From the NCBI RefSeq assembly GCF_001548275.1, contig NZ_AP014945.1, positions 1,080,001 through 1,112,000 of the forward strand: a DNA stretch of 32,000 nt, written 5' to 3'. The stretch is from Caldimicrobium thiodismutans (GTDB taxonomy: Bacteria; Desulfobacterota; Thermodesulfobacteria; Thermodesulfobacteriales; Thermodesulfobacteriaceae). Position 1 is the first letter of the stretch. Every line of letters begins with the position of its first letter. The notes below the pieces were generated by a model. The model worked only from the letters and a program-made list of their open reading frames with translations, was not told the DNA's origin and did not search any database. Shown in pieces: positions 720-23,255 of the stretch. Made by a program: the position numbers and the translations under genes.

Positions 720-748
720 TTGAAAAACCAGCTGATTTAATAGATTTA

Positions 749-7064: not shown

Positions 7065-8607
7065 CTTTTTCCCAGTGAAAGGAAACAATGTTTTTAGTAT
7101 CTTTACTAAAATCAAAGCCAAGGAGATAGAGCTCTTTGAACTTCCCTCTATATTTTTCGTGATACCCCTTTTCTTTAAGCTGTTCTATTGCCTTAGGGCT
7201 TTCTCCTTCCATCTCAACCACCTTAAACTCAACTATAAAACATCTCTCCTCAAAAATTATAGTTAAATCAATTCTTCCAAGGCTTGTATAATCCTCAGGG
7301 ATTACTTCAAAGCCTGCCCCCTCAAGAAAACTATAAACCACACTGGCATAATACCCTTCATATCCTGCTATCTCATTACTTCTATACCACTCATAGGGAA
7401 TCCCTGAAAAAAGGGCCTTTAAAACCTCTCCAAAGGCGGAAACCCTTCCCTCCCTCAAAGCCCTGGTTAACTTAAGGGTAAGCCTTGCACTCTCAGGCCC
7501 CTTCCTTGTCAAATAATCCACTATGTAATTATTCAGGGAAACTCTAACCTCTTTATTGGGATAACTCAGATAATAGAGGTATCCCGTTGGGATTTCTTCA
7601 ACTCCTTTTATGGTGAGATAGCCTGTTTGAAAGAGAAGGTTTTCTGGTTCAATAAAGTCCACATCAAAGCTTCCAAGGAGGCGCTCTGAAGCCATAAGTT
7701 CTGAGAGCTGGGGGATATAAAATTTCTTTTCCACCAGGAGTTTAATAAGAAAACTGGGAGTCCCTGTCTCAAACCAGTAAGGGTGAAATTGTCTTTCTTT
7801 TAGGTAAAGAAGCACATCAAAGGGATTGTAAACGGGTTCCCCAAGCCAGGAATAACCATTATACCAGCATTTAATAAGCTCTAAATCCTTATCTTGCAAT
7901 TCTTCCCCAAAGACCTTTTCAAGCTCTTTTTGAGTGTATCCACAGATAGTTGAATACTCTTTGCTTAAAGTAATATCTCTTAACTGATTTAGCCCTGAAA
8001 AAAGGGAAACCTTTGAGAATTTAGAAACTCCCGTTAGGAAAACAAATTTGAGCTGGGCATCAAGGGGCTTAAGAACACTATAAAAGTTTTTGAGGACATC
8101 TCTTACTGCCTTTGCAGTTTCTCTATCCTCAATGCAATCAAGAATGGGTTTATCATACTCATCAACAAGAACTACTACTTTAGATGCATACTTCTGAGAA
8201 AGTTTTAAGATTAGTTCCCTGAAACAGGCATGATAATCATCTTTCCATTTGCAGGTAATATCATAGAGATTTTGATGTTCCTCAAGTTGCTGAAGTATCC
8301 ATTTCTCAAGGGCTTCTGCACTTTTGACCTCTCCTCCCCCAAAATCAATATGAATAACGGGATACCTGATACTCCAGTCCCAGTTCTTTTCAAGATAGAG
8401 CCCCTGGAAAAGCTCTTTTCTTCCGAGGAAGGCCTGCTTCAGGGTATCCACAAAAAGGGATTTTCCAAATCTCCTCGGGCGAGAGAGAAAATAGTATTTC
8501 CCCCCGGAGGCAAGTTTTTCAACAAAATGAGTTTTATCCACATAATAATAGGGTTCTGAGCGAATCTCAACAAAGCTTGAAATCCCGATGGGTAGGTTTT
8601 TCCCCAT
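7057..8607 (-). CDS. AAA-ATPase-like (PF09820-type) protein with a C-terminal PD-(D/E)XK nuclease domain (PDDEXK_9 type)
   Basis: 516 aa. The N-terminus has GISSFVEIRSEPYYYVDKT and the Walker-A-like SRPRRFGKS, with Walker-B-like VVVLVDEYD. The C-terminus has GRIDLTIIFEERCFIVEFKV (D..ExK). Its 3' end overlaps the convergent TIGR03915 gene by 8 nt. Confidence 0.8.
   Translation of the reverse strand: MGKNLPIGISSFVEIRSEPYYYVDKTHFVEKLASGGKYYFLSRPRRFGKSLFVDTLKQAFLGRKELFQGLYLEKNWDWSIRYPVIHIDFGGGEVKSAEALEKWILQQLEEHQNLYDITCKWKDDYHACFRELILKLSQKYASKVVVLVDEYDKPILDCIEDRETAKAVRDVLKNFYSVLKPLDAQLKFVFLTGVSKFSKVSLFSGLNQLRDITLSKEYSTICGYTQKELEKVFGEELQDKDLELIKCWYNGYSWLGEPVYNPFDVLLYLKERQFHPYWFETGTPSFLIKLLVEKKFYIPQLSELMASERLLGSFDVDFIEPENLLFQTGYLTIKGVEEIPTGYLYYLSYPNKEVRVSLNNYIVDYLTRKGPESARLTLKLTRALREGRVSAFGEVLKALFSGIPYEWYRSNEIAGYEGYYASVVYSFLEGAGFEVIPEDYTSLGRIDLTIIFEERCFIVEFKVVEMEGESPKAIEQLKEKGYHEKYRGKFKELYLLGFDFSKDTKNIVSFHWEKVT
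8329..8607. repeat. 279-bp segment duplicated in inverted orientation at 29241..29519
   Basis: In my hand alignment of the encoded N-termini, 84 of 92 residues are identical (differences at positions 2, 27, 30, 33, 35, 53, 80 and 81). Nucleotide similarity is high throughout and stops abruptly after ..GATTTTGGGGGAGGAG. Confidence 0.85.
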
Positions 8608-8743
8608 AGCTTTATTTTAAGGCCTTTTTATCTGAATTTCAATATCAATATGTGGAACTTTAATATAAAAAGGGCCTTTATGAAGTAAGAGGAAGCAGTA
8701 TAAATTTATGCAAGAAGTTAATTAAGATTCAAGAAGACACATG

Positions 8744-8817
8744 CGCCCCCGGAGGGACTCGAACCCCCAACCTGCGGATTAGAAGTCCGCTGCTCTATCC
8801 TGTTGAGCTACAGGGGC
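8744..8817 (-). tRNA. tRNA-Arg (anticodon UCU)
   Basis: The reverse complement GCCCCTGTAGCTCAACAGGATAGAGCAGCGGACTTCTAATCCGCAGGTTGGGGGTTCGAGTCCCTCCGGGGGCG is 74 nt. It has a 7-bp acceptor stem, anticodon loop CT-TCT-AA and a TTCGAGT T-loop. Confidence 0.9.
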
Positions 8818-8886: not shown

Positions 8887-9672
8887 ATGAACTGGGAAGA
8901 CCTCAGAAATCTCTTTTTTGAAGACTTAAAGGCCGAGTGGATAGGGGAGCGTCTCTTAAAGCAACCACCCTGGGAGGTCTTGAAAGAATTAAAATCCTTC
9001 TTACATGATTCTTTACCTGAGATACCCAGAATTTTATCACAAAAACAGCCCCTTTTAGAGGATTATTTTCTCTCAACTGAGGGAGACCTTATTCCTCTGA
9101 ATCAAATTACAAAAGAAGAAGATAATTATTTTTTTCGGGGGGCGAAAATTAAGGGAGCTATCTTAATGGCTGGAACTTATATAAAGGGAACACGCTTTTA
9201 CTTTGGGGAAGGTGTTATTGTTGAGCCCTTTAGTTATATTGAGGAACCTGCCTATTTTTCAGAGGGCACTCAGATTCGTCATGCCTCCTATGTGAGAGGA
9301 AGTGTCTATACAGGGAAAGGGGCTGTTATCGGGCACACAACTGAAGTAAAAAATTCTATCTTTTTAAAAGAAGCAAAGGCAGCTCACTTTGCCTATGTAG
9401 GAGATAGTATCCTTGGGGCAGAGGTAAATCTTGGTGCAGGTACAAAACTTGCAAACTTGAAATTTTTAAAAAGGGAAATTACCTTTGAAATTAATGAGGT
9501 AAAATTTAAGACAGGTCTAAGAAAAATGGGTGCCATCCTGGGGGATAGAGTTCAGACTGGATGTAATGTGGTGCTTCAGCCAGGCACCCTCCTTGGAAAG
9601 GGCACTGTAGTGTATCCAGGGATGACCGCTGGGTCTGGCTTTTTTCCACCGGGAAGCAAAATAAAATCTTAA
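8887..9672 (+). CDS. Left-handed beta-helix (hexapeptide-repeat) transferase-family protein, GlmU C-terminal-like
   Basis: 261 aa. The C-terminal two thirds show hexapeptide periodicity (..GAVIGHTTEVKNSIF..AHFAYVGDSILGAEVNLGAGTKLANL..GAILGDRVQTGCNVVLQPGTLLGKGTVV). No nucleotidyltransferase domain is present. Confidence 0.65.
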   Translation: MNWEDLRNLFFEDLKAEWIGERLLKQPPWEVLKELKSFLHDSLPEIPRILSQKQPLLEDYFLSTEGDLIPLNQITKEEDNYFFRGAKIKGAILMAGTYIKGTRFYFGEGVIVEPFSYIEEPAYFSEGTQIRHASYVRGSVYTGKGAVIGHTTEVKNSIFLKEAKAAHFAYVGDSILGAEVNLGAGTKLANLKFLKREITFEINEVKFKTGLRKMGAILGDRVQTGCNVVLQPGTLLGKGTVVYPGMTAGSGFFPPGSKIKS

Positions 9673-9688
9673 GGGAGGAGTATTAGAT

Positions 9689-10570
9689 ATGAAAAGGATC
9701 CTTTTGAGTGTTATTGCTATTTGTTTCTTTTTTAGCACTCAGGCCTTGGCGGAAAAATTAATAGCTGAAGTTGGCCCTTATAAGCTTTTTGATACAGAGC
9801 TTCAAAAAATTATGGAAGATGATCCCCAGATAAAGCAGATTCTTCAGGCCAAACCAGAATTAAAAACCCAGGTTTTACAAAGTTTGATTGAGAGATGGAT
9901 GAATATATCTCTTTTTGCTTTAGCCGGTAAGGAGGCTAAGCTCACCGATGATCCCGAGGTTAAGAAAAAATTAATGGAATCTGAGAAGATGATCCTTGCA
10001 GAGGAGTATCTCCAGAAAAACATCTCAAAGATAAATATTTCAGAGGAAGAGATAAAAGACTATTATGAAAAAAATAAGGCCCAATACAAAGAGCCTGAAG
10101 GAGTTAAGTTAAGACACATCTTGATCTATGTTCCCAAAAATGCCGACAAAAAAACAGAAGAAAAGGCTTTAAATAGAGCCAAACAGATCAGAGCTCAGCT
10201 TCTTAAGGGAGCTAAATTTGAGGAGCTCGCTAAGATTCACTCTGATGATACAGCATCCCGTGACAAAGGAGGAGACCTCGGGATCCTCAGAGAAGGAGAG
10301 ACCATTCCAGAGTTTGAAAAAAGTGTTTTTAAGTTGAAGCCAGGTGAAATCAGTGAACCCATCCACTCCCCTTATGGGTATCACATTGTTAAGGTTGAAA
10401 AGAAGATCCCCTCTCAGGAACTACCCCTTGAAAAAGTTAAAGATAGGGTTAGAGAAGACTTAATGAAAGAGAAGGAAAGAGAAGCTTTTCAGAAACTTTT
10501 ACAGGAATTAGTTAAAAAATATGGGCCCAAGGTATATTTAGAAAAGGAAAATAGAGGTGCTTCAAAATAG
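9689..10570 (+). CDS. Secreted parvulin-type peptidyl-prolyl isomerase (PpiC/PrsA/SurA family)
   Basis: Signal peptide MKRILLSVIAICFFFSTQALA, then a parvulin domain: VKLRHILIYV..FEELAKIHSDDTASRDKGGDLGILREGETIPEFEKSVFKLKPGEISEPIHSPYGYHIVKV. Confidence 0.85.
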   Translation: MKRILLSVIAICFFFSTQALAEKLIAEVGPYKLFDTELQKIMEDDPQIKQILQAKPELKTQVLQSLIERWMNISLFALAGKEAKLTDDPEVKKKLMESEKMILAEEYLQKNISKINISEEEIKDYYEKNKAQYKEPEGVKLRHILIYVPKNADKKTEEKALNRAKQIRAQLLKGAKFEELAKIHSDDTASRDKGGDLGILREGETIPEFEKSVFKLKPGEISEPIHSPYGYHIVKVEKKIPSQELPLEKVKDRVREDLMKEKEREAFQKLLQELVKKYGPKVYLEKENRGASK

Positions 10571-11096
10571 TAAAAAACACCTTAAACGATATCTTCTTAG
10601 ACCGGAGGAGGCCCTTTTTGTTGATATAGAAACAGAGGGCCTCTCCAAGGAAAGAAATGACATTACTCTTATTGGTATATACAAAAAAGATAGATATTTT
10701 GCCTTTGTCAAGGGTATCAACTTAGAAAAGGCTCTGAGGTTTTTAGCTACAACCCCTCTCTGGATAACCTTTGGAGGTGAAAACTTTGATATCCCCTTTT
10801 TAAAGAAGACCTTTCAGGGACTAAGCTATCCCGAGATTCATCTGGATCTCTATCACCTGACCGGGGCTATCGGGCTTAAAGGTGGTCTCAAAAAGATTGA
10901 AAAGGCCTTAGGCCTTGAGAGACAAACCGATGGAATGAATGGATATGATGCCGTCAAGCTTTGGAAGAAATGGGTTGAAGATAGAGATAAAAGCGCTTTA
11001 CGAAAACTAATCCTTTACAATAGAGAGGATGTGGTAAATTTAAAGATTATTCTTGAACATGTGATTCGAAAATTTTTCTTTGAAGAAAGGGGGTAG
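10557..11096 (+). CDS. RNase H-like fold 3'-5' exonuclease-domain protein (YprB/COG3359-like)
   Basis: 179 aa with ALFVDIETEGLS (DxE exonuclease motif I), ..ITFGGENFDIPFL.. and ..LILYNREDVVNL... The GTG start overlaps the upstream gene by 14 nt. Confidence 0.6.
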   Translation: MLQNSKKHLKRYLLRPEEALFVDIETEGLSKERNDITLIGIYKKDRYFAFVKGINLEKALRFLATTPLWITFGGENFDIPFLKKTFQGLSYPEIHLDLYHLTGAIGLKGGLKKIEKALGLERQTDGMNGYDAVKLWKKWVEDRDKSALRKLILYNREDVVNLKIILEHVIRKFFFEERG

Positions 11097-11101
11097 AGAA
11101 G

Positions 11102-12580
11102 ATGAAAAGATGGCCCACTTATAAGACCATATTGGTTATGCTTTTAATATTTGCTTTGGGGGTCTTTGCTCGGGAGACCCTGCGTCACCTTAATTTTTTC
11201 AAGGCTCAGGGAGTGATAGCTGAAGATGGAAAACTTCTCCAGGATGAAAACATTCAGCTTGCTCAAAAGTTTTCTCAGGCCTTTTCATTGGTTGCAGAAA
11301 AATCAGCTAAAGCTGTAGTTTACATTGAGACAGAAAGGGTTGTCTCTCATCCTCAACCCACTTTCCCCTTTGATTTTTTTGGAGAAGAATTTATGAAACG
11401 CTTTTTTTCACCCCCCCGTTTTAGAGAGAGAGGGGCAGGCTCTGGCTTTATTCTTTCAAGTGATGGTTATATTGTGACCAATAATCATGTTATAGAGGGA
11501 GCTCAAAAGATTACAGTTAAGATGCTTGATGGGAGAGTCTTTAAGGGTAAGGTAGTTGGAGCAGATCCCTTTTCAGATGTTGCTTTAGTAAAGGTTTCAG
11601 CTGATCATTTGCCTACCCTTCCTCTTGGAAATTCGGATTTGATAAGGGTTGGTGAATGGGTGATTGCTATCGGGAATCCCTTTGGTTTAACTCATACAGT
11701 TACTGTAGGGGTAATTAGTGCCAAGGGAAGAAGTGGTATTGGCATTACGGATATTGAGGACTTTATTCAGACGGATGCTGCCATTAATCCAGGCAACTCA
11801 GGTGGGCCATTACTTAATCTTAAAGGTGAAGTTATAGGTATGAATACTGCTATTTTCTCTCGCTCAGGTGGCTACATGGGAATTGGGTTTGCAATTCCTA
11901 TAAATATTGTGAAATCTGTTGCAGAGCAGATCAAATCTAAGGGTAAAGTGGAAAGAGGCTGGCTGGGAGTGGTTATTCAGGATCTTACCCCAAGTCTGGC
12001 AGAAGAACTGGGGATAAAGGCAAAAGAAGGTGTTTTGGTAGTTGAAGTGGTTCCTGATTCACCAGCAGCTAAAGCAGGGTTAAAGGAAAAGGATGTAATT
12101 TTAAGAATAAATGGAAAGGAGATTAAAAATTCTGCGGAATTAAGAAGCACCATCCTTCTTATTAAACCAGGAACCACAGTTGATCTTGAAATCATAAGAG
12201 GCTCTGAAAGGAAAACACTCAAAGTAGTTATTGAGGCCCCAAAGAAATCAGCTTTGACCTCCAAGGCAGAAAGAGATAAATTACAAGAGCTTCTGGAGGA
12301 GTTTGGCCTTGTGGTCTCCGATTTAACTCCAGATATAGCCAGACGCTTTGGAATTCCATCTAAAATTAAAGGAGTGGTGGTTGTAGAGGTTCTTCCCGAT
12401 ACTCCCGCAGACTTTGCCGGTCTTGCTTCTGGTATGGTTATTGAAGAGGCTAATAAAAAAAGGGTCTCAAATACCCTTGATTTGTATGAGGCTTTAAAGG
12501 AATCTGCTCAGAAAAAAAGACTTCTGCTCGGAGTCCGTACTGCACGAGGTAAGTTTTTTGTAACTTTAAGCTTAGAGTAA
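11102..12580 (+). CDS. htrA: Periplasmic serine endoprotease DegP/HtrA family with two PDZ domains
   Basis: 492 aa with the catalytic triad contexts TNNHV, DVALVKV and GNSGGPL, followed by two PDZ-like segments (..GVLVVEVVPDSPAAKAGLKEKDVILRINGKEI.. and ..GVVVVEVLPDTPADFAGLASGMVIEEANKKRV..). Confidence 0.92.
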   Translation: MKRWPTYKTILVMLLIFALGVFARETLRHLNFFKAQGVIAEDGKLLQDENIQLAQKFSQAFSLVAEKSAKAVVYIETERVVSHPQPTFPFDFFGEEFMKRFFSPPRFRERGAGSGFILSSDGYIVTNNHVIEGAQKITVKMLDGRVFKGKVVGADPFSDVALVKVSADHLPTLPLGNSDLIRVGEWVIAIGNPFGLTHTVTVGVISAKGRSGIGITDIEDFIQTDAAINPGNSGGPLLNLKGEVIGMNTAIFSRSGGYMGIGFAIPINIVKSVAEQIKSKGKVERGWLGVVIQDLTPSLAEELGIKAKEGVLVVEVVPDSPAAKAGLKEKDVILRINGKEIKNSAELRSTILLIKPGTTVDLEIIRGSERKTLKVVIEAPKKSALTSKAERDKLQELLEEFGLVVSDLTPDIARRFGIPSKIKGVVVVEVLPDTPADFAGLASGMVIEEANKKRVSNTLDLYEALKESAQKKRLLLGVRTARGKFFVTLSLE

Positions 12581-17604: not shown

Positions 17605-18510
17605 TTGACTATGGAATATCAAAGAACTGTTGCAGATGTGGTAATTTTTGAAGGGGAAGGAGTTTTTTCAGGTAAAAAGATCAGGGTAGAGATTCATCCC
17701 TTAAGAGAAAATGAAGGCATTGTCTTTGAAAGGGCTGATCTGTCGGATAAACCCCGCATTCCTCTTGTTATTGAAAATATAGTTGGCCTTGAGGGGGCAG
17801 TTCTTCTCACAAATGGTAAAGAATCAATCTCCTTAGTGGAGCATCTACTTTCTGCTTTTCATGGCCTTGGTATTGATAATGCTTTAGTAAAGGTCTTTGG
17901 GGAAGAGATTCCTCTTCTTGATGGGTCTGCTTTTCCTATAGTTAGAGCCTTGCAGGAGGTAGGGTATTTATTATTGCCCGCACCGAGAAAGAAGTTTGTT
18001 CTCAAAAGGCCCTTTCAGCTTGTTAATGGAGTGGGAAAGATATCCTTCAAACCTTCCCATAAATTAAGTATCAATGCCAGGATTTATTTTGAACATCCTT
18101 CCATAGGGGAACAGACCTTTAAGTTTACTCTTACCCCACAGGATTTTATAAGAGAAGTCTCCTTTGCCCGGACTTTTGGTTTTAAAGATCTTCTTGAGGA
18201 AAGAAAAAAGAAAGGCCTTCTCAAGGGAGGAAGTTTATCCAATGCCATAGTGATAGATAAAGAGAAGGTCCTTAATGCTGAGGGATTGAGGGCCCAGGAT
18301 GAATTTGTCAGGCACAAGGTTCTTGACATAGTGGGAGATCTCTTTACCTTGGGGCATCCCCTTTTAGCTGAGGTTTCAGCAGAACTTACAGGGCATAAAC
18401 TTCATATCGAGGCTTTAAAAGCCCTTTCCCAGGCTGGGCTTCTGGAGGAGGTTTCTACACGGGCCCTTACTTTTTTATGGATTCCTAAAAAGAAGAGGAG
18501 GTCTTTCTAA
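17605..18510 (+). CDS. lpxC: UDP-3-O-acyl-N-acetylglucosamine deacetylase
   Basis: Contains VEHLLSAFHGLGIDN and DEFVRHKVLDIVGDL. The track start is TTG 17605; ATG at 17611 is equally plausible. Confidence 0.93.
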   Translation: MTMEYQRTVADVVIFEGEGVFSGKKIRVEIHPLRENEGIVFERADLSDKPRIPLVIENIVGLEGAVLLTNGKESISLVEHLLSAFHGLGIDNALVKVFGEEIPLLDGSAFPIVRALQEVGYLLLPAPRKKFVLKRPFQLVNGVGKISFKPSHKLSINARIYFEHPSIGEQTFKFTLTPQDFIREVSFARTFGFKDLLEERKKKGLLKGGSLSNAIVIDKEKVLNAEGLRAQDEFVRHKVLDIVGDLFTLGHPLLAEVSAELTGHKLHIEALKALSQAGLLEEVSTRALTFLWIPKKKRRSF

Positions 18511-19423
18511 TTTTTCCAATTTTGTAAATCAGGCCATCAGGTTTACTTAAAACTTCTTCCAGAGTTAGAAGATTAATTCTATAGGTTAGGCCTTTGGATG
18601 AGGTAAGTTCTTCAAGCCTTTTTATAATATATTGAACCGGATCAGGAAAGCGTTTATCTATATCTGGAAAGGCTTGGAGATAGATTGAATTGTCCTCAAT
18701 AGCCAGTTTGTAAGGCAAATAGGTTACAAAAACATCTGTTTTTAAGGGAACCATTTTAAAGAGTCTTTCAATATCTTCAGGATAGAGCCTGAAACATCCA
18801 TGGGTAGTTCTTCTTCCAATGCTGTATGCCTTGTTAGTGCCATGAATAGCAAAGAGGCCTTTATCTAAATACAAGGCATAATCTCCCATAGGATTTTCAG
18901 GCCCAGGAGGGACGACCTCTGGAAGCTCAGGTTCTTCCCTGCGTATTGATTCCGTTGGATACCAGTATGGCTTTTCTTTTTTGCGCACAATCTTGTAATT
19001 TCCTGTGGGGGGAAGCTTGCCCTCATCTCCAATCCCAATGGGAAAGGTTAAAAAGGTCCCCTTCCGAAAATAGTAAAGTCGCATTTCTGGAAGATTTATA
19101 AGTATATAGTTTTCCTTTTTAAGGATAAATTCTTCTGGAACAATAAGTTTATAGGGTAAAAGAATTTTTGAACCAGGAGGAGGAACCCATGGATCAACCC
19201 CTGGATTGGCAAGAAGTAGTGCCTGATAGCCTAATTTGAACTTTACTGCAAGATCAACCAGAGTATCCCCCTTTTTTAGGATATATTCTTTGTCTTCAAA
19301 ATAAATAAATTTATTGTTTTGCAAAGAAGTAAAGGCAAGCCCTTGAGAGTAAAGTAAAATGATATAGAATAAAAAAATCCCGGTCAAGGAGGTAAATCCA
19401 TGCGCTTTCATAATATCCTTCAA
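18485..19423 (-). CDS. L,D-transpeptidase (YkuD family) with an N-terminal LysM domain
   Basis: LysM segment YILKKGDTLVDLAVKFKLGYQALLLANPGV and YkuD active site HGTN..GRRTTHGCFRL. The track start is TTG 19423. ATG at 19411, preceded by AAGGA, is the more likely start and gives the signal peptide MKAHGFTSLTGIFLFYIILLYSQGLA. The 3' end overlaps lpxC by 26 nt. Confidence 0.88.
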   Translation of the reverse strand: MKDIMKAHGFTSLTGIFLFYIILLYSQGLAFTSLQNNKFIYFEDKEYILKKGDTLVDLAVKFKLGYQALLLANPGVDPWVPPPGSKILLPYKLIVPEEFILKKENYILINLPEMRLYYFRKGTFLTFPIGIGDEGKLPPTGNYKIVRKKEKPYWYPTESIRREEPELPEVVPPGPENPMGDYALYLDKGLFAIHGTNKAYSIGRRTTHGCFRLYPEDIERLFKMVPLKTDVFVTYLPYKLAIEDNSIYLQAFPDIDKRFPDPVQYIIKRLEELTSSKGLTYRINLLTLEEVLSKPDGLIYKIGKIRKTSSSF

Positions 19424-21727
19424 AAGGTTGGAAATACTCCTATTGTTAAACTAAACAAGTTAAAAGTCAAGGGGGCTGTAGAAATTTGGGGGAAGCTTGA
19501 AAGTCAAAATCCAGGTGGATCTGTGAAAGATCGTATTGCCCTTGCGATGATAGAGGATGCAGAAAAAAGAGGTCTTCTTACTCCTGAAAAGATTGTTATT
19601 GAGGCTTCAAGTGGGAATACAGGAATTGGGCTTGCCATGGTTTGTGCAGCCAAAGGGTATCGTTGCGTTATTGCTATGCCAGAGTCTGCATCCCTTGAGA
19701 GAAGAAAGGTTATGCAGGCTTTTGGAGCTGAAATTGTTTTAACTCCTGCAGGCAAAGGCACAGATGGAGCCATTGAGTTTGTTTATGATCTTGTGAGGGC
19801 TGAGTCTGAAAAATATTTTTGCCCTGACCAGTTTAACAATCCTGCCAACTGGCAAATGCATTACCGAACAACTGGGCCTGAAATCTGGGCTCAAACCGAG
19901 GGGAAAGTTACCTTTGTGGTAAGTGCCCTTGGAACCACTGGAACAGCCATGGGAATTGCAAGATATGCCCTTGATAACCATCTTCCCTTTAAGGTGGTTG
20001 GGGTTGAACCCTATCCCGGGCATAAAATTCAGGGACTTAAAAATATGAAGGAATCCTTTCCCCCAGGAATTTTTGATAGAAAACTTCTTTATAAGGTGAT
20101 TAATGTTTGCGATGAAGAGGCCTATGAGATGGCAAGATGGCTTGCAAGGAATGAGGGTATATTTGTAGGAATGAGCTCAGGGGCAGCTCTTGCTGGAGCT
20201 TTGAAACTTGCTGAAGAAATTGCTGAAGGAATGATTGTAGTAATCTTCCCTGATCATGGAGAAAGATATCTCTCAACTCCCCTCTGGGCCTTTGAAACAA
20301 AAGAGGTGGAAAGGGACCTTTATCTTTATAATACCCTTACTCAGAAAAAGGAGGCCTTTGTTCCTAAGGACCCCCCTGTAGTTAAGATTTACACCTGTGG
20401 CCCAACTCTTAACATCAGGCCTCACATCGGGCTCTATCGCAGGCTTCTTACTGCAGATATTTTAAAGGGGTATCTCAAACTTTTCGGATATACTCCTTTT
20501 CATGTGGTAAACCTTACTGATTTTGATGATAAAACCATCCAGACTGCCCTTGAAAAAGAAAGACCCTTAAAGGAATTAACTGAAGAAATAGAAAGAGCCT
20601 TTTATGAAGATCTTGAATTTTTAAGAATTGAAAGGGCTAATGCTTATCCCAGGGTGAGTGAAAATCTTGAGGAGATGAAGGAGCTTGCCTTTAAACTTTA
20701 TGACCAGCACAAGGCCTATGAGAAGTTTTCTGCCCTTTATTTTGATGTGTCAAGATTCCCTGATTACGGAAGGCTTGCCAAAGTTGATTTGAAGGCTCTC
20801 AAAGGAGGTGTGACAGTTGATCAAGAGGAATATGAAAAGGAAGAACCCTATGATTTTGCCCTTTTGAAAAGGGTTCATATTCTTGAGATGAAGGCAGGCT
20901 ATTTTCTTGAAACACCCATTGGAAGAGTGAGGCCTACCTGGCATATCCACTGCGCTTGTATAGCTTTAAAATATCTTGGGGACAATTTTGATATCTATAC
21001 CAGTGGAAGGGATTTAATCTTTCCCCATCATGAAAACACAAGAGCCGTTGCCAAGGCTTTAACTGGTAAGGAACTTGCCAATTACTGGATTCACACAGAA
21101 CTCAGCTATTTTGAAGGAAAAAAACTCTCCTCAGATAATAGAATCACCCTTCCAGATATCAAAGAAAAAGGTTTTGAAGGTCGGGTTTTAAGACTATATA
21201 TGCTTCAGAGTCACTACAGTAGTCCTCTTAATTTTTCCTGGAAAGCCCTTGAGGATGCAAAAAGATACCTTGAAAAAATTGATACCTATCTTGCCTATAT
21301 TTCCTTTGCAAAAGAAAAGGTTTTACCAGATAGGGAAAGGGAAACTCTCTGGGAAAAACTCTCCACCTTTGAAAAAAACTTTAAATCCGCTTTAAAAGAA
21401 GATTTAAACACCCCTCTTGCTATTTCGGAATTAACCGACTTTCTTAAAGATCTTTATCGTCAGGCAGAAAAGGGCTTTCCTGCAGGCTATAAAGAAAAAG
21501 TTTTTGAGGTTTTAAGGAGTTTTAACTCCATCTTTAAATTTCTTAAGTTTCCAAAAGAAATAAAAGACAGGGAAATACTTGAGCTTGCAAAGAGAAGAGA
21601 TAGGGCACGAAGGGAGGGAAACTTTGAGGAGGCAGATATTATAAGAGAGGAGCTTATTAATAGAGGTTATAAAGTTTATGATACTCCCTCAGGCACCAGG
21701 GTTATAAATTTCCTTGATGAAGAATAA
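19400..21727 (+). CDS. cysS: Fusion protein: cysteine synthase (CysK/CysM, PLP-dependent) plus full-length cysteinyl-tRNA synthetase with degenerate HIGH/KMSKS motifs
   Basis: Continuous 775-aa ORF with a strong SD (AAGGAGG, 7-nt spacing). The N-terminal half has GGSVKDR, SSGNTG, GTTGT, HKIQGL, SSGAA and ERYLSTPLW. The C-terminal half has LYLYNTLTQKKEAF, YTCGPTLNIRPHIGLYR, NLTDFDDK, PTWHIHC, DIYTSGRDLIFPHHENT, GKKLSSDN, LNTPLAISEL and RRDRARREGNFEEADIIREELINRGYKVYDTPSGTRV. Confidence 0.85.
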   Translation: MRFHNILQKVGNTPIVKLNKLKVKGAVEIWGKLESQNPGGSVKDRIALAMIEDAEKRGLLTPEKIVIEASSGNTGIGLAMVCAAKGYRCVIAMPESASLERRKVMQAFGAEIVLTPAGKGTDGAIEFVYDLVRAESEKYFCPDQFNNPANWQMHYRTTGPEIWAQTEGKVTFVVSALGTTGTAMGIARYALDNHLPFKVVGVEPYPGHKIQGLKNMKESFPPGIFDRKLLYKVINVCDEEAYEMARWLARNEGIFVGMSSGAALAGALKLAEEIAEGMIVVIFPDHGERYLSTPLWAFETKEVERDLYLYNTLTQKKEAFVPKDPPVVKIYTCGPTLNIRPHIGLYRRLLTADILKGYLKLFGYTPFHVVNLTDFDDKTIQTALEKERPLKELTEEIERAFYEDLEFLRIERANAYPRVSENLEEMKELAFKLYDQHKAYEKFSALYFDVSRFPDYGRLAKVDLKALKGGVTVDQEEYEKEEPYDFALLKRVHILEMKAGYFLETPIGRVRPTWHIHCACIALKYLGDNFDIYTSGRDLIFPHHENTRAVAKALTGKELANYWIHTELSYFEGKKLSSDNRITLPDIKEKGFEGRVLRLYMLQSHYSSPLNFSWKALEDAKRYLEKIDTYLAYISFAKEKVLPDRERETLWEKLSTFEKNFKSALKEDLNTPLAISELTDFLKDLYRQAEKGFPAGYKEKVFEVLRSFNSIFKFLKFPKEIKDREILELAKRRDRARREGNFEEADIIREELINRGYKVYDTPSGTRVINFLDEE

Positions 21728-22361
21728 GATTTTTTTTGAAATTTTTGAAAAGTTATATAGGTTTTTTGGTCCACAGGGGTGGTGGCCTGCAGAGAGTCCC
21801 TTTGAAGTCTGCGTGGGAGCTATCCTTACTCAAAATGCAAACTGGAAAAATGTAGAAAAGGCCATAGAAAATTTAAAAAAAAAGAATCTTTTAACCCCAG
21901 AAGCCTTATATCAGCTTTCAGAAAGAGAACTTGCCGAGCTCATTAAACCCTCTGGATTTTATAATCTTAAGGCCAAAAGACTAAAAAATTTTTTAAAATT
22001 TCTCTTTGAAAACTATCAGGGAGATCTTAAAAGAATGAGGGAGGAAAATCCTGAGATTTTAAGAAGAAAACTTCTTGAGGTAAAGGGCCTTGGCCTTGAG
22101 ACCGTGGATTCCATTTTACTTTATGCCTTAGATATGCCCTTTTTTGTGGTGGATGCCTATACCTATAGAATCCTTTTTCGGCACGGGCTCTGTCCTGAAG
22201 AAACCACCTATGAAGAACTACAAAATATCTTTCATGAAAATCTTGAAAGGGATATAGAATTATACAAGGAATTTCACGCCCTTTTGGTTGCCTGTGGAAA
22301 AATTTTCTGTAAGATGAAAGAGCCCCTCTGTGAACCTTGCCCTTTATCTGAGCTGAGGTAA
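21714..22361 (+). CDS. Endonuclease III-related HhH-GPD DNA glycosylase-family protein (COG2231-like)
   Basis: Contains ..GAILTQNANWKNVEKA.., the HhH LLEVKGLGLETVDSILLYAL, the catalytic Asp context FFVVDAYTYRI and the C-terminal Cys cluster CGKIFCKMKEPLCEPC. The EndoIII lysine is absent, so it is probably monofunctional. It overlaps the upstream gene by 14 nt. Confidence 0.78.
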   Translation: MMKNKIFFEIFEKLYRFFGPQGWWPAESPFEVCVGAILTQNANWKNVEKAIENLKKKNLLTPEALYQLSERELAELIKPSGFYNLKAKRLKNFLKFLFENYQGDLKRMREENPEILRRKLLEVKGLGLETVDSILLYALDMPFFVVDAYTYRILFRHGLCPEETTYEELQNIFHENLERDIELYKEFHALLVACGKIFCKMKEPLCEPCPLSELR

Positions 22362-22370
22362 CCCTCCTTT

Positions 22371-23255
22371 ATGGTCTGGATAATCCTTTCCATTCTTGCA
22401 GGGTTCTTTGTAGCCCTAAGTGATGCCTTAAACAAAAAATATATATCCAAAGAAGGCTTTGTAAAAATGACTGTTTCAAGAACCCTTGGAGCCTTTCCCT
22501 TTTTATTTCCTTTGTTTCTCTATTTTCTATTAGAGAAAACTTCCTATCTTTATTTTACCCCAGATTTTATAGTTAATACTCTAATTCTTCTTTTTCTTGA
22601 AATCATAGCTACCCTTTTTTACATGAAAGGTATCGAGATCTCTCCTCTTTCAGCTTCCCTTCCCTTTTTATCCTTTACCCCAATTTTTATCATTTTTACT
22701 GGATTTTTCATTCTTGGAGAAAGGGTAAGTGTGCCTGGTGCTTTGGGAATTTTTTTAATTGTTACCGGAGCCTATCTCATTCACCTTCCAAGAATTAATC
22801 AGGGAATCCTTGCACCTTTAAAAGGTATCTGGGAGGAAAGAGGAGGCCTTTTTCTTCTGGTCACAGCCTTTATCTATGGAATTACAAGTGTTCTTGGTAA
22901 AAGAGGCCTTCTTCTATCAGATCCCCTCTTTTTTGCCTCCTTTTATTTTTCCCTTCTTTCCTTTACCACACCATTAATCTTAAAGTTTATATATAAAATT
23001 GAAATCCTTTCTTTTTTAAAGAAAAATTTTAGAGGTATAATTCTGGTGGGAGGAACGCAGGCTCTTATGTGTTTTTGCCACATGCTTGCTTTAAGTCTTA
23101 TTGAAACCGCCTATATGATTGCCTTGAAAAGAACAAGCATTTTCTTTGCAGTGGGGCTTGGCTGGCTTTTTTTTAAAGAGAGGCACATTGGCCTTCGCTT
23201 GGGAGCCTCAATTCTAATGTTTATAGGAATTCTGATTATTGCCTTCTGGAAATAG
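22371..23255 (+). CDS. EamA/DMT-superfamily transporter
   Basis: 294 aa with about 10 hydrophobic helices in two halves, typical of EamA repeat proteins. Confidence 0.75.
   Translation: MVWIILSILAGFFVALSDALNKKYISKEGFVKMTVSRTLGAFPFLFPLFLYFLLEKTSYLYFTPDFIVNTLILLFLEIIATLFYMKGIEISPLSASLPFLSFTPIFIIFTGFFILGERVSVPGALGIFLIVTGAYLIHLPRINQGILAPLKGIWEERGGLFLLVTAFIYGITSVLGKRGLLLSDPLFFASFYFSLLSFTTPLILKFIYKIEILSFLKKNFRGIILVGGTQALMCFCHMLALSLIETAYMIALKRTSIFFAVGLGWLFFKERHIGLRLGASILMFIGILIIAFWK

What the first reader, a model, noticed from the sequence alone, without database searches (positions are those of the whole stretch)
19400..21727. Intact cysteine synthase fused in-frame to a complete CysRS whose ATP-handling signature motifs are degenerate
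One uninterrupted 775-aa ORF. Residues ~1-300 carry every cysteine synthase hallmark: the PLP lysine in GGSVKDR, SSGNTG, GTTGT, HKIQGL, SSGAA and the usual C-terminal ERYLSTPLW. After about 10 linker residues a full-length class I CysRS starts. LYLYNTLTQKKEAF aligns with E. coli MLKIFNTLTRQKEEF, and the domain runs to the normal C-terminus (..EADIIREELINRGYKVYDTPSGTRV). The cysteine/zinc pocket is largely kept (YTCGP, NLTDFDDK, TWHIHC, FPHHEN). The catalytic signatures are not kept: HIGH reads HIGL, KMSKS reads KKLSS (second Lys lost), DIHGGG reads DIYTSG, and the fourth Zn ligand (last E of HHENE) is T. One reading is an atypical but active CysRS physically coupled to cysteine synthesis, giving product channelling. 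The other is a CysRS-derived cysteine/tRNA(Cys)-binding module put to a new use. Possible uses include charge-sensing control of CysK, persulfide chemistry (CysRS enzymes are reported to have PLP-linked persulfide synthase activity), or a tRNA-bound PLP beta-replacement analogous to SepCysS. I know of no characterised protein with this architecture.
Basis: partly seen in the sequence, partly recalled or inferred. Interest (0 to 1): 0.78.

Follow-up and report, generated by a model that had tools for sequence, protein, structure and literature searches.

The report
Cysteine synthase fused to atypical CysRS
One gene of a hot-spring sulfur bacterium joins the enzyme that makes cysteine to the enzyme that loads cysteine onto its tRNA; the loading half has a rebuilt ATP site shared by a whole bacterial clade, nobody appears to have studied it, and I could not settle whether it still charges tRNA.

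Summary
Window 19400-21727 (+) is one uninterrupted 775-aa ORF. It is 100% identical to a Caldimicrobium thiodismutans protein. It consists of a complete CysM-type cysteine synthase, a roughly 10-residue linker and a full-length CysRS.

The fusion is not an assembly artefact. More than 200 database clusters and 37 bacterial genome loci carry it, covering every sampled genus of Thermodesulfobacteria plus Desulfobulbia, Syntrophia and Desulfofervidaceae MAGs.

The odd CysRS motifs belong to the whole bacterial fusion clade. Every member has lost the second KMSKS lysine. Nearly all have fixed G226S, Q241I/V, Y33H/N/S and a new Arg after HIGH (E. coli numbering). DPANN-archaeal versions of the same fusion are fully canonical.

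Much is still kept at about 90-100%: three of the four zinc/cysteine ligands, the ribose Asp, the first KMSKS Lys and all anticodon-binding-domain invariants. The catalytic domain is under purifying selection as strong as the PLP half.

Best reading (about 0.5): an active bifunctional CysM-CysRS with a remodelled ATP site. Main rival (about 0.3): a cysteine/tRNA(Cys)-sensing pseudo-synthetase that controls CysM.

The decisive test is whether the genome holds a second cysS. These tools could not run it. I found no publication on the fusion.

The parts
19343..19370 (+). Sigma-70-like promoter candidate (TTGAGA-16-TAGAAT), about 30 nt upstream of the ATG
   Evidence: Consensus scan, 10 of 12 matches. 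The number of such sites in the region is no higher than in shuffled sequence, so this is only a candidate.
19400..21727 (+). Single 775-aa ORF: the CysM-CysRS fusion (end coordinate includes the stop codon)
   Evidence: It is 100% identical to the C. thiodismutans 'cysteinyl-tRNA synthetase' (P0001).
19418..20287 (+). PLP-dependent cysteine synthase domain, CysM type (residues 7-296)
   Evidence: Pfam PALP 2e-76. TIGR01136 scores 373 bits, above the 344 cutoff. The best solved relatives are CysM 2jc3/2bhs at 280 bits. Foldseek TM 0.95 to 2bhs.
19526..19528 (+). Codon for Lys43, the PLP Schiff-base lysine in GGSVKDR
   Evidence: Invariant in all 79 aligned fusions and in every full-length member of the two 120-protein sets.
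20288..20317 (+). Short linker (residues 297-306, AFETKEVERD)
   Evidence: It lies between the end of the CysM match and the start of the TIGR00435 match at residue 307. pLDDT falls to about 71-80 here.
20318..21262 (+). CysRS Rossmann-fold catalytic domain with its CP insertion (residues 307-621)
   Evidence: Pfam tRNA-synt_1e 7e-74. phmmer to 8qhp gives 2e-80. Foldseek TM 0.92 to 8qhp. dN/dS is 0.03-0.07 within Caldimicrobium.
20396..20398 (+). Cys333, equivalent to E. coli zinc ligand Cys28
   Evidence: 100% conserved in all fusion groups.
20423..20443 (+). HIGH-equivalent H342-I-G-L345, then Y-R347-R348. R348 (E. coli T43) is the clade-specific extra arginine.
   Evidence: R348 is present in 98% of bacterial fusions. 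The same column is T, A or S in canonical CysRS. The helix starts at residue 343 in the model.
20948..20953 (+). His517-Cys518 (WHIHC). Cys518 equals zinc ligand Cys209. His517 replaces the canonical Glu208.
   Evidence: E517H and E547T each occur in 100% of the window's subclade. A ligand swap is my inference.
20990..21007 (+). D531-I-Y-T-S535-G536, in place of the canonical DIHGGG
   Evidence: G226 is invariant in 131 of 131 canonical representatives and is Ser in 96% of bacterial fusions. H224 is F or Y only in the window's subclade.
21026..21040 (+). H543-H-E-N-T547. His543 equals zinc ligand His234. Thr547 stands where zinc ligand Glu238 would be.
21122..21133 (+). KMSKS-equivalent loop K575-L-S-S, with a 2-residue deletion. 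The first Lys is kept and the second is absent.
   Evidence: K575 is kept in 97% of bacterial fusions.
21377..21544 (+). DALR_2 helical-bundle domain (residues 660-715)
   Evidence: Pfam 2.2e-05, 25.3 bits against a cutoff of 22.
21584..21709 (+). C-terminal anticodon-binding domain (residues 729-770). The canonical invariants R733, D746, R749, G756 and D761 (E. coli R423, D436, R439, G446, D451) are all present.
   Evidence: These positions are about 93-100% conserved in all six bacterial subclades. The Pfam CysS_C hit is weak, 19 bits against a cutoff of 23.
21714..22361 (+). HhH-GPD DNA glycosylase gene whose start overlaps the fusion's stop. It is a neighbour, not a functional part.
   Evidence: The neighbour is conserved in 29 of 43 loci.
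22371..23255 (+). EamA-family (DMT) transporter gene, a neighbour conserved within Thermodesulfobacteriaceae
   Evidence: 24 of 43 loci. Any link to cysteine or O-acetylserine export is speculation.

Best explanation
The gene encodes a bifunctional enzyme. The N-terminal CysM-type PLP domain makes L-cysteine from an activated serine and reduced sulfur. The activated serine is probably O-acetylserine, possibly O-phosphoserine. The covalently attached CysRS domain binds that cysteine through its zinc site, activates it with ATP and esterifies tRNA(Cys). Cysteine synthesis and Cys-tRNA formation are therefore physically coupled.

The CysRS half belongs to a distinct bacterial clade whose ATP/adenylate pocket was rebuilt once, in the clade's ancestor. 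The clade lost the second KMSKS Lys and the H/N at HIGH position 4. It fixed G226S, Q241I/V and Y33N/H. An invariant extra Arg (R348) appeared one helical turn after HIGH, where it could replace the lost phosphate contacts.

In the Caldimicrobium/Thermodesulfobacterium subclade the fourth zinc ligand Glu238 was also lost. His517, next to Cys518, may replace it.

Shown here: the architecture, its conservation, the residue pattern and purifying selection.
Inferred: that ATP-dependent aminoacylation persists, that R348 compensates, that zinc ligation is swapped, and that any channelling occurs.
For: 1. All parts needed for aminoacylation other than the two signature residues are kept at about 90-100% across six bacterial subclades (n=201). 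[quoted passage not shown]

2. Within Caldimicrobium the catalytic domain shows dN/dS of 0.03-0.07, the same as the PLP domain. The changed positions are fixed in their new state rather than scattered.

3. There are precedents for each loss.
- Human and yeast TrpRS are active with KMSAS. A distal Arg and a loop Ser contact ATP there (PMC2275098).
- E. coli CysRS K266A/K269A mutants reportedly kept cell-free translation (PMC10655014).
- MshC holds its zinc with only three protein ligands, and its first KMSKS Lys contacts the phosphate mimic (PMC9736012).
- HIGN is commoner than HIGH among the canonical CysRS representatives retrieved here.

4. The same fusion with fully canonical CysRS motifs exists in DPANN archaea (18 clusters). 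An unfused tRNA-Cys/cysK/cysS cluster exists in a Methanosarcinales MAG. Coupling CysK/M to a working CysRS therefore has independent support.

5. The fusion is present in every sampled genus of Thermodesulfobacteria (Caldimicrobium, Thermodesulfobacterium, Thermosulfurimonas, Thermodesulfatator, Thermosulfuriphilus). It sits among housekeeping genes such as pyrB, pyrC, lpxC and era, with no specialised operon.

6. Known paralogs with new functions (MshC, CysRS*, HisZ) have lost the anticodon-binding domain. This protein has not (established knowledge; PMC5389517).

7. The model is confident (pLDDT 91.5) and superposes on tRNA-bound E. coli CysRS (1u0b, TM 0.82).
Against: 1. The second KMSKS Lys and G226 are invariant in 131 of 131 canonical representatives and are lost in the whole bacterial fusion clade.

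2. The ATP-contact positions keep drifting between subclades.
- HIGH position 4 is L, F, I, V, H, N or Q.
- HIGH position 1 is Asn in one subclade.
- The loop reads KKSPD or KKPSR in another subclade.
- H224 is F or Y in the window's subclade.
This looks like relaxed constraint on ATP chemistry while the cysteine and tRNA sites stay fixed.

3. The clade's nearest canonical relatives are archaeal-type CysRS. It may therefore have entered bacteria as an extra copy alongside a resident bacterial cysS.

4. TIGR00435 scores just under its curated cutoff (336.6 against 340).

5. AlphaFold gives pTM 0.65. It predicts no fixed orientation between the two halves, so a channel has no structural support.

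6. I could not determine whether this is the only cysS in the genome.
Confidence: 0.5

Rival explanations
1. Pseudo-synthetase sensor. The CysRS half no longer makes Cys-AMP. It binds cysteine at the zinc site and tRNA(Cys) through the anticodon-binding and CP domains, and uses that occupancy to regulate the fused CysM. This would give feedback by product and/or activation by uncharged tRNA. The analogues are HisZ, which regulates HisG, and the HisRS-like domain of GCN2. A separate canonical CysRS would serve translation.
For: - Conservation is selective. Cysteine/zinc and tRNA-binding residues are about 100% conserved.
- The classical ATP contacts (second KMSKS Lys, HIGH position 4, G226, H224 in the window's subclade) are lost. 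Several of those positions vary freely between subclades.
- The clade forms a separate long branch away from all canonical CysRS.
- Its nearest canonical relatives are archaeal, consistent with an additional, horizontally acquired copy.
- CysM, unlike CysK, is not known to be regulated through the CysE complex, so a built-in regulator would make sense (established knowledge).
- HisZ and GCN2 are precedents for aaRS-derived sensors (established knowledge).
Against: - His37, Gly39, Asp229 and the first KMSKS Lys have no obvious role without a nucleotide. They are still about 84-97% conserved after class-level divergence.
- Known regulatory aaRS paralogs lost their anticodon-binding domain or their amino-acid pocket. 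This one kept both.
- No second cysS lies within 10 kb of the fusion in any of the bacterial fusion loci fetched. This is weak evidence.
- The fusion is universal in a class of small-genome thermophiles, which suits an essential gene better.
Confidence: 0.3
2. Specialised second CysRS. The domain is catalytically active but is dedicated to a particular substrate or condition, alongside a housekeeping CysRS. One candidate substrate is the non-canonical selC*-type tRNA(Cys) reported in Thermodesulfobacteria, Syntrophobacterales and relatives. Another possibility is adaptation to sulfide- or polysulfide-rich conditions.
For: - The reported distribution of selC* tRNA(Cys) (Thermodesulfobacteria, delta-proteobacteria, Smithella) overlaps the distribution of the fusion.
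- Clade-specific fixed changes also lie in the CP domain, which reads the acceptor stem: R168T, D474, R491, K498, G500.
- A dedicated CysRS* for such tRNAs is a precedent (PMC5389517).
Against: - No tRNA-Cys or selC*-like gene lies within 10 kb of the fusion in the 36 bacterial fusion loci scanned.
- The anticodon-binding invariants are canonical.
- The overlap in distribution is coarse and was not tested genome by genome.
Confidence: 0.08
3. New tRNA-linked sulfur chemistry. The CysRS-like half holds tRNA(Cys) or Cys-tRNA(Cys) while the PLP domain acts on the esterified residue. This could be a SepCysS/SelA-like beta-replacement or formation of a persulfide.
For: - A beta-replacement PLP enzyme is fused to an intact tRNA(Cys)-binding scaffold whose ATP site is altered.
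- SepRS-SepCysS and SelA show that tRNA-bound beta-replacement exists (PMC5424206).
Against: - SepCysS and SelA are fold-type I enzymes, whereas this is a standard fold-type II CysM with every free-substrate motif intact.
- No mis-acylating enzyme is known in these bacteria. The 2017 survey confirmed bacterial SepRS only in Parcubacteria and Chloroflexi.
- The zinc-thiolate pocket for free cysteine is conserved.
- Two of the four lysines implicated in CysRS persulfide synthase activity are lost.
- AlphaFold does not place the two active sites in a defined relation.
Confidence: 0.06
4. Assembly or annotation artefact: two adjacent genes, cysM and cysS, were merged by a sequencing error near 20.29-20.33 kb.
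For: - Unfused cysK-cysS neighbours exist in a Methanosarcinales MAG.
- One 98%-identical MAG protein is called as only 506 aa (P0046).
Against: - The same in-frame junction occurs in more than 200 independent clusters from isolates and MAGs, down to 37% identity in the CysRS half.
- The junction sequence has no homopolymer run.
- The linker holds no internal start with room for a separate gene.
Confidence: 0.01

Closest known systems
Canonical class I cysteinyl-tRNA synthetase (E. coli CysS, PDB 1LI5/1U0B; archaeal-type 8QHP)
   Same: - Same full domain order: Rossmann fold, CP insertion, stem-contact fold, helical bundle, C-terminal anticodon-binding domain.
- Foldseek TM 0.82-0.92.
- Shares Cys28/Cys209/His234, Thr68, Trp205, Asp229, the first KMSKS Lys and the anticodon-binding invariants.
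   Different: - Fused to CysM at its N-terminus.
- Lacks the second KMSKS Lys and has a 2-residue deletion in that loop.
- HIGH position 4 is Leu.
- G226S, H224Y, Q241V, Y33N and W184L.
- Zinc ligand Glu238 is Thr.
- Extra Arg at the T43 position.
- TIGR00435 score is just under its cutoff.
CysM / O-acetylserine sulfhydrylase B (PDB 2BHS, 2JC3)
   Same: About 45-47% identity. All PLP and substrate-loop motifs are present. TM 0.95.
   Different: - The C-terminus continues into a CysRS instead of ending.
- It scores below the cysM equivalog cutoff (371.5 against 394.2) but above the cysKM subfamily cutoff.
- Substrate (O-acetylserine or O-phosphoserine) and sulfur donor are unknown.
DPANN-archaeal CysK/M-CysRS fusions (Nanoarchaeota, Nanobdellota and Woesearchaeota MAGs, e.g. 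P0126)
   Same: - Same PALP + tRNA-synt_1e + DALR_2 architecture and similar length (760-804 aa).
- Their PALP halves are closer to the bacterial fusions (50-56%) than either is to enterobacterial CysM.
   Different: - Every CysRS invariant is canonical there: HIGN, DIHTGG, HHxNExAQ, KMSKS.
- Their CysRS halves nest inside archaeal CysRS and do not group with the bacterial clade.
- They are also uncharacterised.
SepRS-SepCysS(-SepCysE) 'transsulfursome' of methanogens
   Same: Works like it at the level of logic: cysteine synthesis is physically coupled to Cys-tRNA(Cys) formation (PMC5424206).
   Different: - The chemistry there occurs on the tRNA (Sep-tRNA to Cys-tRNA), with a class II SepRS and a fold-type I PLP enzyme.
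- Here a free-cysteine synthase is fused to a class I CysRS with a free-cysteine zinc pocket.
- The two systems are not homologous.
MshC (Cys:GlcN-Ins ligase) and CysRS* of Desulfobacterales, known CysRS paralogs
   Same: They derive from the CysRS catalytic domain and have a zinc-thiolate cysteine pocket. MshC's zinc has only three protein ligands, as appears to be the case here.
   Different: - Both paralogs lack the anticodon-binding domain. MshC keeps HIGH and KMSKS.
- This protein keeps the anticodon-binding domain and lacks the signature residues.
- TIGR03447 scores 144 against a cutoff of 485.
HisZ and the GCN2 HisRS-like domain (aaRS-derived sensors)
   Same: This is how the protein would work if the rival explanation is right: an aaRS-like module with impaired ATP motifs, attached to and regulating an enzyme of the same amino acid's metabolism.
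   Different: - HisZ lost its anticodon-binding domain, and GCN2's domain lost its amino-acid specificity.
- They belong to class II.
- No regulatory behaviour has been shown for this protein.

Membership tests
Cysteine synthase CysK/CysM (fold-type II PLP; TIGR01136) | PLP Schiff-base lysine in the SxKDR motif | tested here: met
   GGSVK43DR is present. The lysine is invariant in 79 aligned fusions.
Cysteine synthase CysK/CysM (fold-type II PLP; TIGR01136) | Substrate 'asparagine loop' [ST]SGNTG, phosphate loop GT(G/T)GT, and Ser binding PLP N1 (MSSGAA) | tested here: met
   SSGNTG (70-75), GTTGT (178-182) and GMSSGAA are all present and conserved.
Cysteine synthase CysK/CysM (fold-type II PLP; TIGR01136) | Curated HMM cutoff | tested here: met
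   The cysKM subfamily model scores 373, above 344.15. The equivalog models are not reached: cysM 371.5 against 394.2, cysK 330.3 against 350.95.
Cysteine synthase CysK/CysM (fold-type II PLP; TIGR01136) | O-acetylserine or O-phosphoserine sulfhydrylase activity | not testable with these tools
   Needs an enzyme assay.
Cysteinyl-tRNA synthetase (class I; TIGR00435 / PF01406) | Full-length CysRS domain set: catalytic domain, DALR_2 and C-terminal anticodon-binding domain | tested here: met
   PF01406 7e-74, DALR_2 25.3 bits against a cutoff of 22. TIGR00435 aligns over profile positions 1-465 of 466. TM 0.82 to 1u0b.
Cysteinyl-tRNA synthetase (class I; TIGR00435 / PF01406) | Curated equivalog score | tested here: not met
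   336.6 bits against a cutoff of 340, a marginal miss.
Cysteinyl-tRNA synthetase (class I; TIGR00435 / PF01406) | HIGH signature H-x-G-[H/N] | tested here: not met
   The motif reads H342-I-G-L345. Positions 1 and 3 are kept. Position 4 is Leu, where the canonical representatives have N in 88 and H in 43.
Cysteinyl-tRNA synthetase (class I; TIGR00435 / PF01406) | KMSKS signature with both lysines | tested here: not met
   The loop reads K575-L-S-S with a 2-residue deletion. The second Lys is absent here and in all 201 bacterial fusions. It is present in 134 of 145 representative clusters; 10 of the 11 that lack it carry the clade's Arg43 signature.
Cysteinyl-tRNA synthetase (class I; TIGR00435 / PF01406) | Zinc/cysteine pocket: Cys28, Cys209, His234, Glu238, plus Thr68 and Trp205 | tested here: inconclusive
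   Five of the six are present (C333, C518, H543, T373, W514). Glu238 is Thr547. His517 co-occurs with it in 100% of the subclade and may substitute. MshC manages with three protein ligands.
Cysteinyl-tRNA synthetase (class I; TIGR00435 / PF01406) | Invariant Gly226 of DIHxGG and the ribose-binding Asp229 | tested here: inconclusive
   G226 is Ser535, whereas it is Gly in 131 of 131 canonical representatives. Asp229 is kept as D538.
Cysteinyl-tRNA synthetase (class I; TIGR00435 / PF01406) | Anticodon-binding-domain invariants (E. coli R423, D436, R439, G446, D451) | tested here: met
   R733, D746, R749, G756 and D761 are present and 93-100% conserved in all subclades.
Cysteinyl-tRNA synthetase (class I; TIGR00435 / PF01406) | ATP-dependent charging of tRNA(Cys), and being the organism's CysRS | not testable with these tools
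   No tool scans a single whole genome. All attempts to find or exclude a second cysS failed.
MshC (TIGR03447) | Curated score, absence of the anticodon-binding domain, intact HIGH and KMSKS | tested here: not met
   144.2 bits against a cutoff of 485.1. The anticodon-binding domain is present and the signatures are altered.
SepCysS-type tRNA-dependent cysteine synthesis | Fold-type I PLP enzyme working with a SepRS partner | tested here: not met
   The PLP domain is fold-type II CysM. The literature survey confirmed bacterial SepRS/SepCysS only in Parcubacteria and Chloroflexi. I did not search this genome for SepRS directly.
aaRS-derived regulatory pseudo-enzymes (HisZ-like) | Loss of adenylation chemistry, plus a separate functional synthetase in the same genome | not testable with these tools
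   The motif losses are compatible with this. Catalytic inactivity and a second cysS were not established.

The most novel reading that the evidence does not exclude
The CysRS half of the bacterial fusion clade has given up canonical ATP-dependent aminoacylation. It now acts as a cysteine- and tRNA(Cys)-binding module wired to a cysteine synthase. This would be a bacterial, class I counterpart of HisZ or GCN2 that tunes cysteine synthesis to tRNA(Cys) charging status. More radically, it could be a scaffold for cysteine-related chemistry on or next to the tRNA. Translation would then depend on a separate canonical CysRS.
Probability: 0.33. Interest if true: 0.85.

Novelty: new variant of a known kind. 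Interest (0 to 1): 0.62.

Why it matters
Direct coupling of cysteine synthesis to tRNA charging is so far known only from the archaeal-type SepRS-SepCysS route. A covalent CysM-CysRS enzyme would be a second, independent solution. It occurs across a class of sulfur-cycling thermophiles and related anaerobes, and in canonical form in DPANN archaea.

If the synthetase half is active, it is a natural class I enzyme that works without the second KMSKS lysine and without an H/N at HIGH position 4. A relocated arginine would do that job. This would be a useful test case for how class I active sites are built.

If it is inactive, it is a new kind of aaRS-derived sensor that keeps its full tRNA-binding apparatus.

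In both cases the annotation needs care. Databases label these proteins 'cysteine--tRNA ligase' or 'cysteine synthase' more or less at random. Genome-based metabolic or marker-gene inferences that rely on cysS in these lineages rest on an untested enzyme.

Tried and rejected
1. Finding a second cysS in the same genome. This failed by every route.
- The nearest canonical relative of the CysRS half (P0127) has only archaeal relatives.
- The genome-collection scan returned only the fusion itself in Thermodesulfobacteria.
- tblastn of all 45 fetched loci found no second CysRS-like gene in any of them; each covers at most 10 kb on either side.
- The supplement of the aaRS census paper is not held.
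- Ten thermophile-like canonical representatives were looked up for organism names. Only Methanococcus was named.
- The question stays open.

2. Linkage to tRNA-Cys or selC*-like tRNA. None was found near any bacterial fusion.

3. A conserved operon partner such as a sulfur carrier, CysE or SepRS.
- None was found. Neighbours are housekeeping genes and differ between classes.
- The hexapeptide-repeat protein at 8887-9672 is GlmU-like, not CysE.

4. Structure-based evidence for a channel.
- AlphaFold models both halves confidently but gives pTM 0.65.
- The tool returns no coordinates, so the distance between the two active sites could not be measured.

5. Ideas rejected.
- Assembly artefact: rejected by recurrence of the fusion.
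- MshC membership: rejected.
- Akaike-type persulfide synthase through KIIK/KMSK lysines: unlikely, because K76 and K269 are lost.

6. Statistical caveat. The association between loss of the second Lys and gain of Arg43 is 10 against 131 clusters. It reflects a single clade and therefore a single event. It is not independent statistical proof of compensation.

7. Literature. Six full-text searches found no paper on the fusion. The library lacks most subscription journals.

Full report
**What is there**

Window 19400-21727 (+) is a single ATG-initiated ORF of 775 codons with no interruption. The junction DNA is unremarkable. The protein is 100% identical to a protein of Caldimicrobium thiodismutans, a thermophilic sulfur-disproportionating member of the Thermodesulfobacteria, encoded on a 1.81-Mb contig.

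Domain assignments:
- Pfam finds PALP at residues 7-285 and tRNA-synt_1e at 322-621, followed by DALR_2 and a weak CysS_C match.
- NCBIfam places the N-terminal half above the cysKM cutoff (373 against 344).
- The C-terminal half aligns end to end with the cysS equivalog but falls just below its cutoff (336.6 against 340).
- The N-terminal half is most like CysM, O-acetylserine sulfhydrylase B (2jc3/2bhs, 280 bits, about 46% identity).
- The AlphaFold model is confident (pLDDT 91.5). Its halves superpose on CysM (TM 0.95) and on CysRS, including the tRNA complex 1U0B (TM 0.82-0.92).
- No PDB chain covers both halves.

**Not an artefact, and not a one-off**

The 120 best database relatives are all the same fusion, apart from one truncated gene call. 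A scan of one genome per species returned 41 loci, 37 of them bacterial fusions. They come from these taxa:
- Caldimicrobium
- Thermodesulfobacterium, including three DSM type strains
- Thermosulfurimonas
- Thermodesulfatator
- Syntrophaceae/Syntrophus MAGs and a 'Deltaproteobacteria' MAG

A third search added Desulfofervidaceae, Syntrophobacter-like and many unclassified Thermodesulfobacteriota MAGs. It also added a set of DPANN archaeal fusions.

**Anatomy of the CysRS half across the family**

I compared 219 fusions with 115 canonical CysRS representatives and numbered positions on E. coli CysRS. I verified that sequence as identical to 1LI5. Two groups separate cleanly.

The 18 DPANN fusions are canonical at every invariant: HIGN, DIHTGG, HHxNExAQ and KMSKS.

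All 201 bacterial fusions, in six subclades, share a derived set of changes:

| E. coli position | State in bacterial fusions | Frequency |
|---|---|---|
| T43 | R (window R348) | 98% |
| G226 | S | 96% |
| Q241 | I or V | 96% |
| Y33 | mostly H, N or S | not scored as one figure |
| W184 | L or F | not scored as one figure |
| G201 | V or I | not scored as one figure |
| R168 | T | 96% |
| K269 (second KMSKS Lys) | not K; Arg in part of two subclades, otherwise F, H, S, A, V or deleted | essentially all |

New fixed residues also appear at window positions R491, K498 and G500.

The window's subclade (Caldimicrobium plus Thermodesulfobacterium) adds further changes:
- H224 becomes F or Y.
- G204 becomes T.
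- M267 becomes L.
- The KMSKS loop carries a 2-residue deletion.
- E238T and E208H each occur in 100% of members.

The following stay at about 84-100% in the bacterial clade:
- zinc ligands Cys28, Cys209 and His234
- Thr68 and Trp205
- His37 and Gly39 of HIGH (lost only in one 'NLSH' subclade)
- Asp222 and Asp229
- the first KMSKS Lys
- Arg290, His297 and Tyr298

Within Caldimicrobium the catalytic domain has dN/dS of 0.03-0.07, the same as the PLP half. The helical and anticodon-binding part is at 0.09-0.17. dS is saturated, so these values are rough.

In a neighbour-joining tree the bacterial fusions, plus a few unfused proteins with the same signature, form one clade apart from all canonical CysRS. 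The DPANN fusions nest inside archaeal CysRS. The nearest canonical relatives of the window's CysRS half are archaeal. The PALP halves of the archaeal and bacterial fusions are closer to each other (50-56%) than to enterobacterial CysM (41-47%).

**How 'degenerate' are the motifs?**

They are less degenerate than they look in two respects:
- Among 131 canonical representative clusters, retrieved as the nearest relatives of this domain, HIGH position 4 is Asn in 88 and His in 43.
- The first Gly of DIHGGG is freely G, T, A or C.

They are truly non-canonical in three respects. The second KMSKS Lys and Gly226 are invariant in those 131 clusters, and Glu238 is invariant in the 115-sequence canonical comparison set.

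Each loss has a precedent:
- Human and yeast TrpRS work with KMSAS. A distal arginine and a loop serine take over ATP contacts there (PMC2275098).
- A review reports that E. coli CysRS K266A/K269A mutants kept cell-free translation (PMC10655014).
- In MshC, zinc is held by only three protein ligands plus the substrate thiol. The first KMSKS Lys and the fourth HIGH residue touch the phosphate mimic. The Tyr equivalent to E. coli Y33 flips into the pocket on ligand binding (PMC9736012).

In the model the HIGH helix starts at residue 343. R348 therefore sits one turn after L345, on the same helical face. That is a plausible position for replacing the lost phosphate contacts, but this is inference. 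The strict pairing of E238T with E208H, next to Cys209, suggests a swap of the fourth zinc ligand. That too is inference.

**Context**

The neighbours are housekeeping genes:
- upstream: pyrB, pyrC, lpxC and a divergent YkuD transpeptidase
- downstream: an overlapping HhH-GPD glycosylase, an EamA transporter, an MFS transporter and era

This order is conserved within Thermodesulfobacteriaceae but not beyond. No locus has a tRNA-Cys, CysE, sulfur-carrier or second CysRS gene near the fusion.

**Interpretation**

The most economical reading is a bifunctional enzyme. CysM makes cysteine, and the attached CysRS, with a rebuilt ATP pocket, loads it on tRNA(Cys). Arguments in favour:
- It retains everything needed for cysteine and tRNA recognition, and part of the nucleotide site.
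- Purifying selection is strong, and the changed residues are fixed in their new state.
- Canonical versions of the same fusion exist in archaea.
- It is present in every sampled genus of a class of small-genome thermophiles.
- Known repurposed CysRS paralogs (MshC, CysRS*) lost their anticodon-binding domain, whereas this protein did not.

Arguments against:
- The classical ATP contacts continue to drift between subclades. Examples are NLSH in place of HIGH, and KKSPD or KKPSR in place of KMSKS. The cysteine and tRNA sites meanwhile stay frozen.
- The clade looks like an archaeal-type copy that may have arrived alongside a resident bacterial cysS.

That pattern is what a cysteine/tRNA(Cys)-sensing pseudo-synthetase regulating CysM would show, by analogy with HisZ or GCN2.

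My estimates are:

| Reading | Probability |
|---|---|
| Active bifunctional enzyme | about 0.5 |
| Sensor | about 0.3 |
| Specialised second CysRS | about 0.08 |
| tRNA-linked new chemistry | about 0.06 |
| Artefact | about 0.01 |

The channelling idea has no structural support yet, because pTM of 0.65 means the relative orientation of the two halves is undefined.

**What could not be done**

The decisive question is whether C. thiodismutans and its relatives carry another cysS. No tool scans a single genome, so it could not be answered. Four indirect attempts failed.

**Novelty**

Six literature searches found nothing on this architecture. A curated aaRS resource lists only GST as an accessory domain for CysRS. 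Databases name the protein inconsistently. I classify it as a new variant of known kinds: two well-known enzymes fused, with a clade-wide remodelled class I active site.

Noticed in passing
L045 8904-11401 (Methanosarcinales MAG, contig CAZHVK010000003.1): Three unfused neighbours lie in a row: tRNA-Cys(GCA) at 8904-8975, a CysK/M-like PALP gene at about 9083-9961, and a separate canonical cysS ORF at 9971-11401. This could be a precursor arrangement of the fusion, or a compact 'cysteine for translation' cluster.
   Followed up: partly
Proteins P0126 and P0407-P0423 (Nanoarchaeota, Nanobdellota and Woesearchaeota MAGs): DPANN archaea usually have few biosynthetic genes. They nevertheless carry the same CysK/M-CysRS fusion with completely canonical CysRS motifs, in at least 18 clusters of 760-804 aa.
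   Followed up: partly
Protein P0255 (711 aa, found): A different cysteine-pathway fusion: an N-terminal hexapeptide-repeat acetyltransferase domain (possibly like serine acetyltransferase) joined to a canonical CysRS.
   Followed up: no
L001 and L002 4700-12510 (Desulfobulbia-type MAGs): In both loci the fusion gene directly follows a five-gene run whose Pfam content looks like dsrMKJOP (Nitrate_red_gam, Fer4, a small ORF, Fer4_11, NrfD). A tRNA-Arg(TCT) follows it. A tRNA-Arg(TCT) also lies 10.6 kb upstream of the fusion in the window (8743-8817).
   Followed up: no
Window 20948-20950 and 21038-21040: In the Caldimicrobium/Thermodesulfobacterium subclade, loss of zinc ligand Glu238 (Thr547) always co-occurs with Glu208 becoming His517, next to ligand Cys518. 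Syntrophaceae fusions instead read FPHCENV, with a new Cys beside ligand His234. The fourth zinc ligand may have been replaced more than once.
   Followed up: partly
Proteins P0123, P0124, P0131, P0133, P0135 (found): These are unfused proteins of 460-511 aa with the bacterial-fusion signature (RR after HIGH, TSG, no second KMSKS Lys). They group inside the fusion clade. They may be fission products or sit next to a separate PALP gene. Their genomic context could not be fetched.
   Followed up: no
Window 5102-7064: A radical-SAM protein matches TIGR03916 ('putative DNA modification/repair radical SAM protein', 521 bits). The next gene overlaps it and encodes a DUF4130 protein. An AAA-ATPase_like + PDDEXK_9 protein lies on the opposite strand at 7057-8607.
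   Followed up: no
Window 253-723 and 965-2134: Two ORFs of 156 and 389 aa have no Pfam match at E <= 1e-5. The longer one also has no NCBIfam match.
   Followed up: no
Window 18485-19423 (-) and 19400 (+): The YkuD/LysM ORF, as listed from its first TTG, overlaps the start of the fusion gene by 24 nt on the opposite strand. Its true start is probably further in. Two promoter-like sites face each other at 19343-19387.
   Followed up: no
Protein P0046 (506 aa, 98% identical, MAG contig of 113,615 bp): In one near-identical MAG the gene is called as only the last 506 residues, without the PALP domain. This suggests a frameshift or a gene-calling difference in that assembly. P0046 is also the representative of the 50%-identity cluster for the window's own relatives (the Thermodesulfobacteria fusions), so that cluster looks like a plain CysRS in the clustered library.
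   Followed up: no
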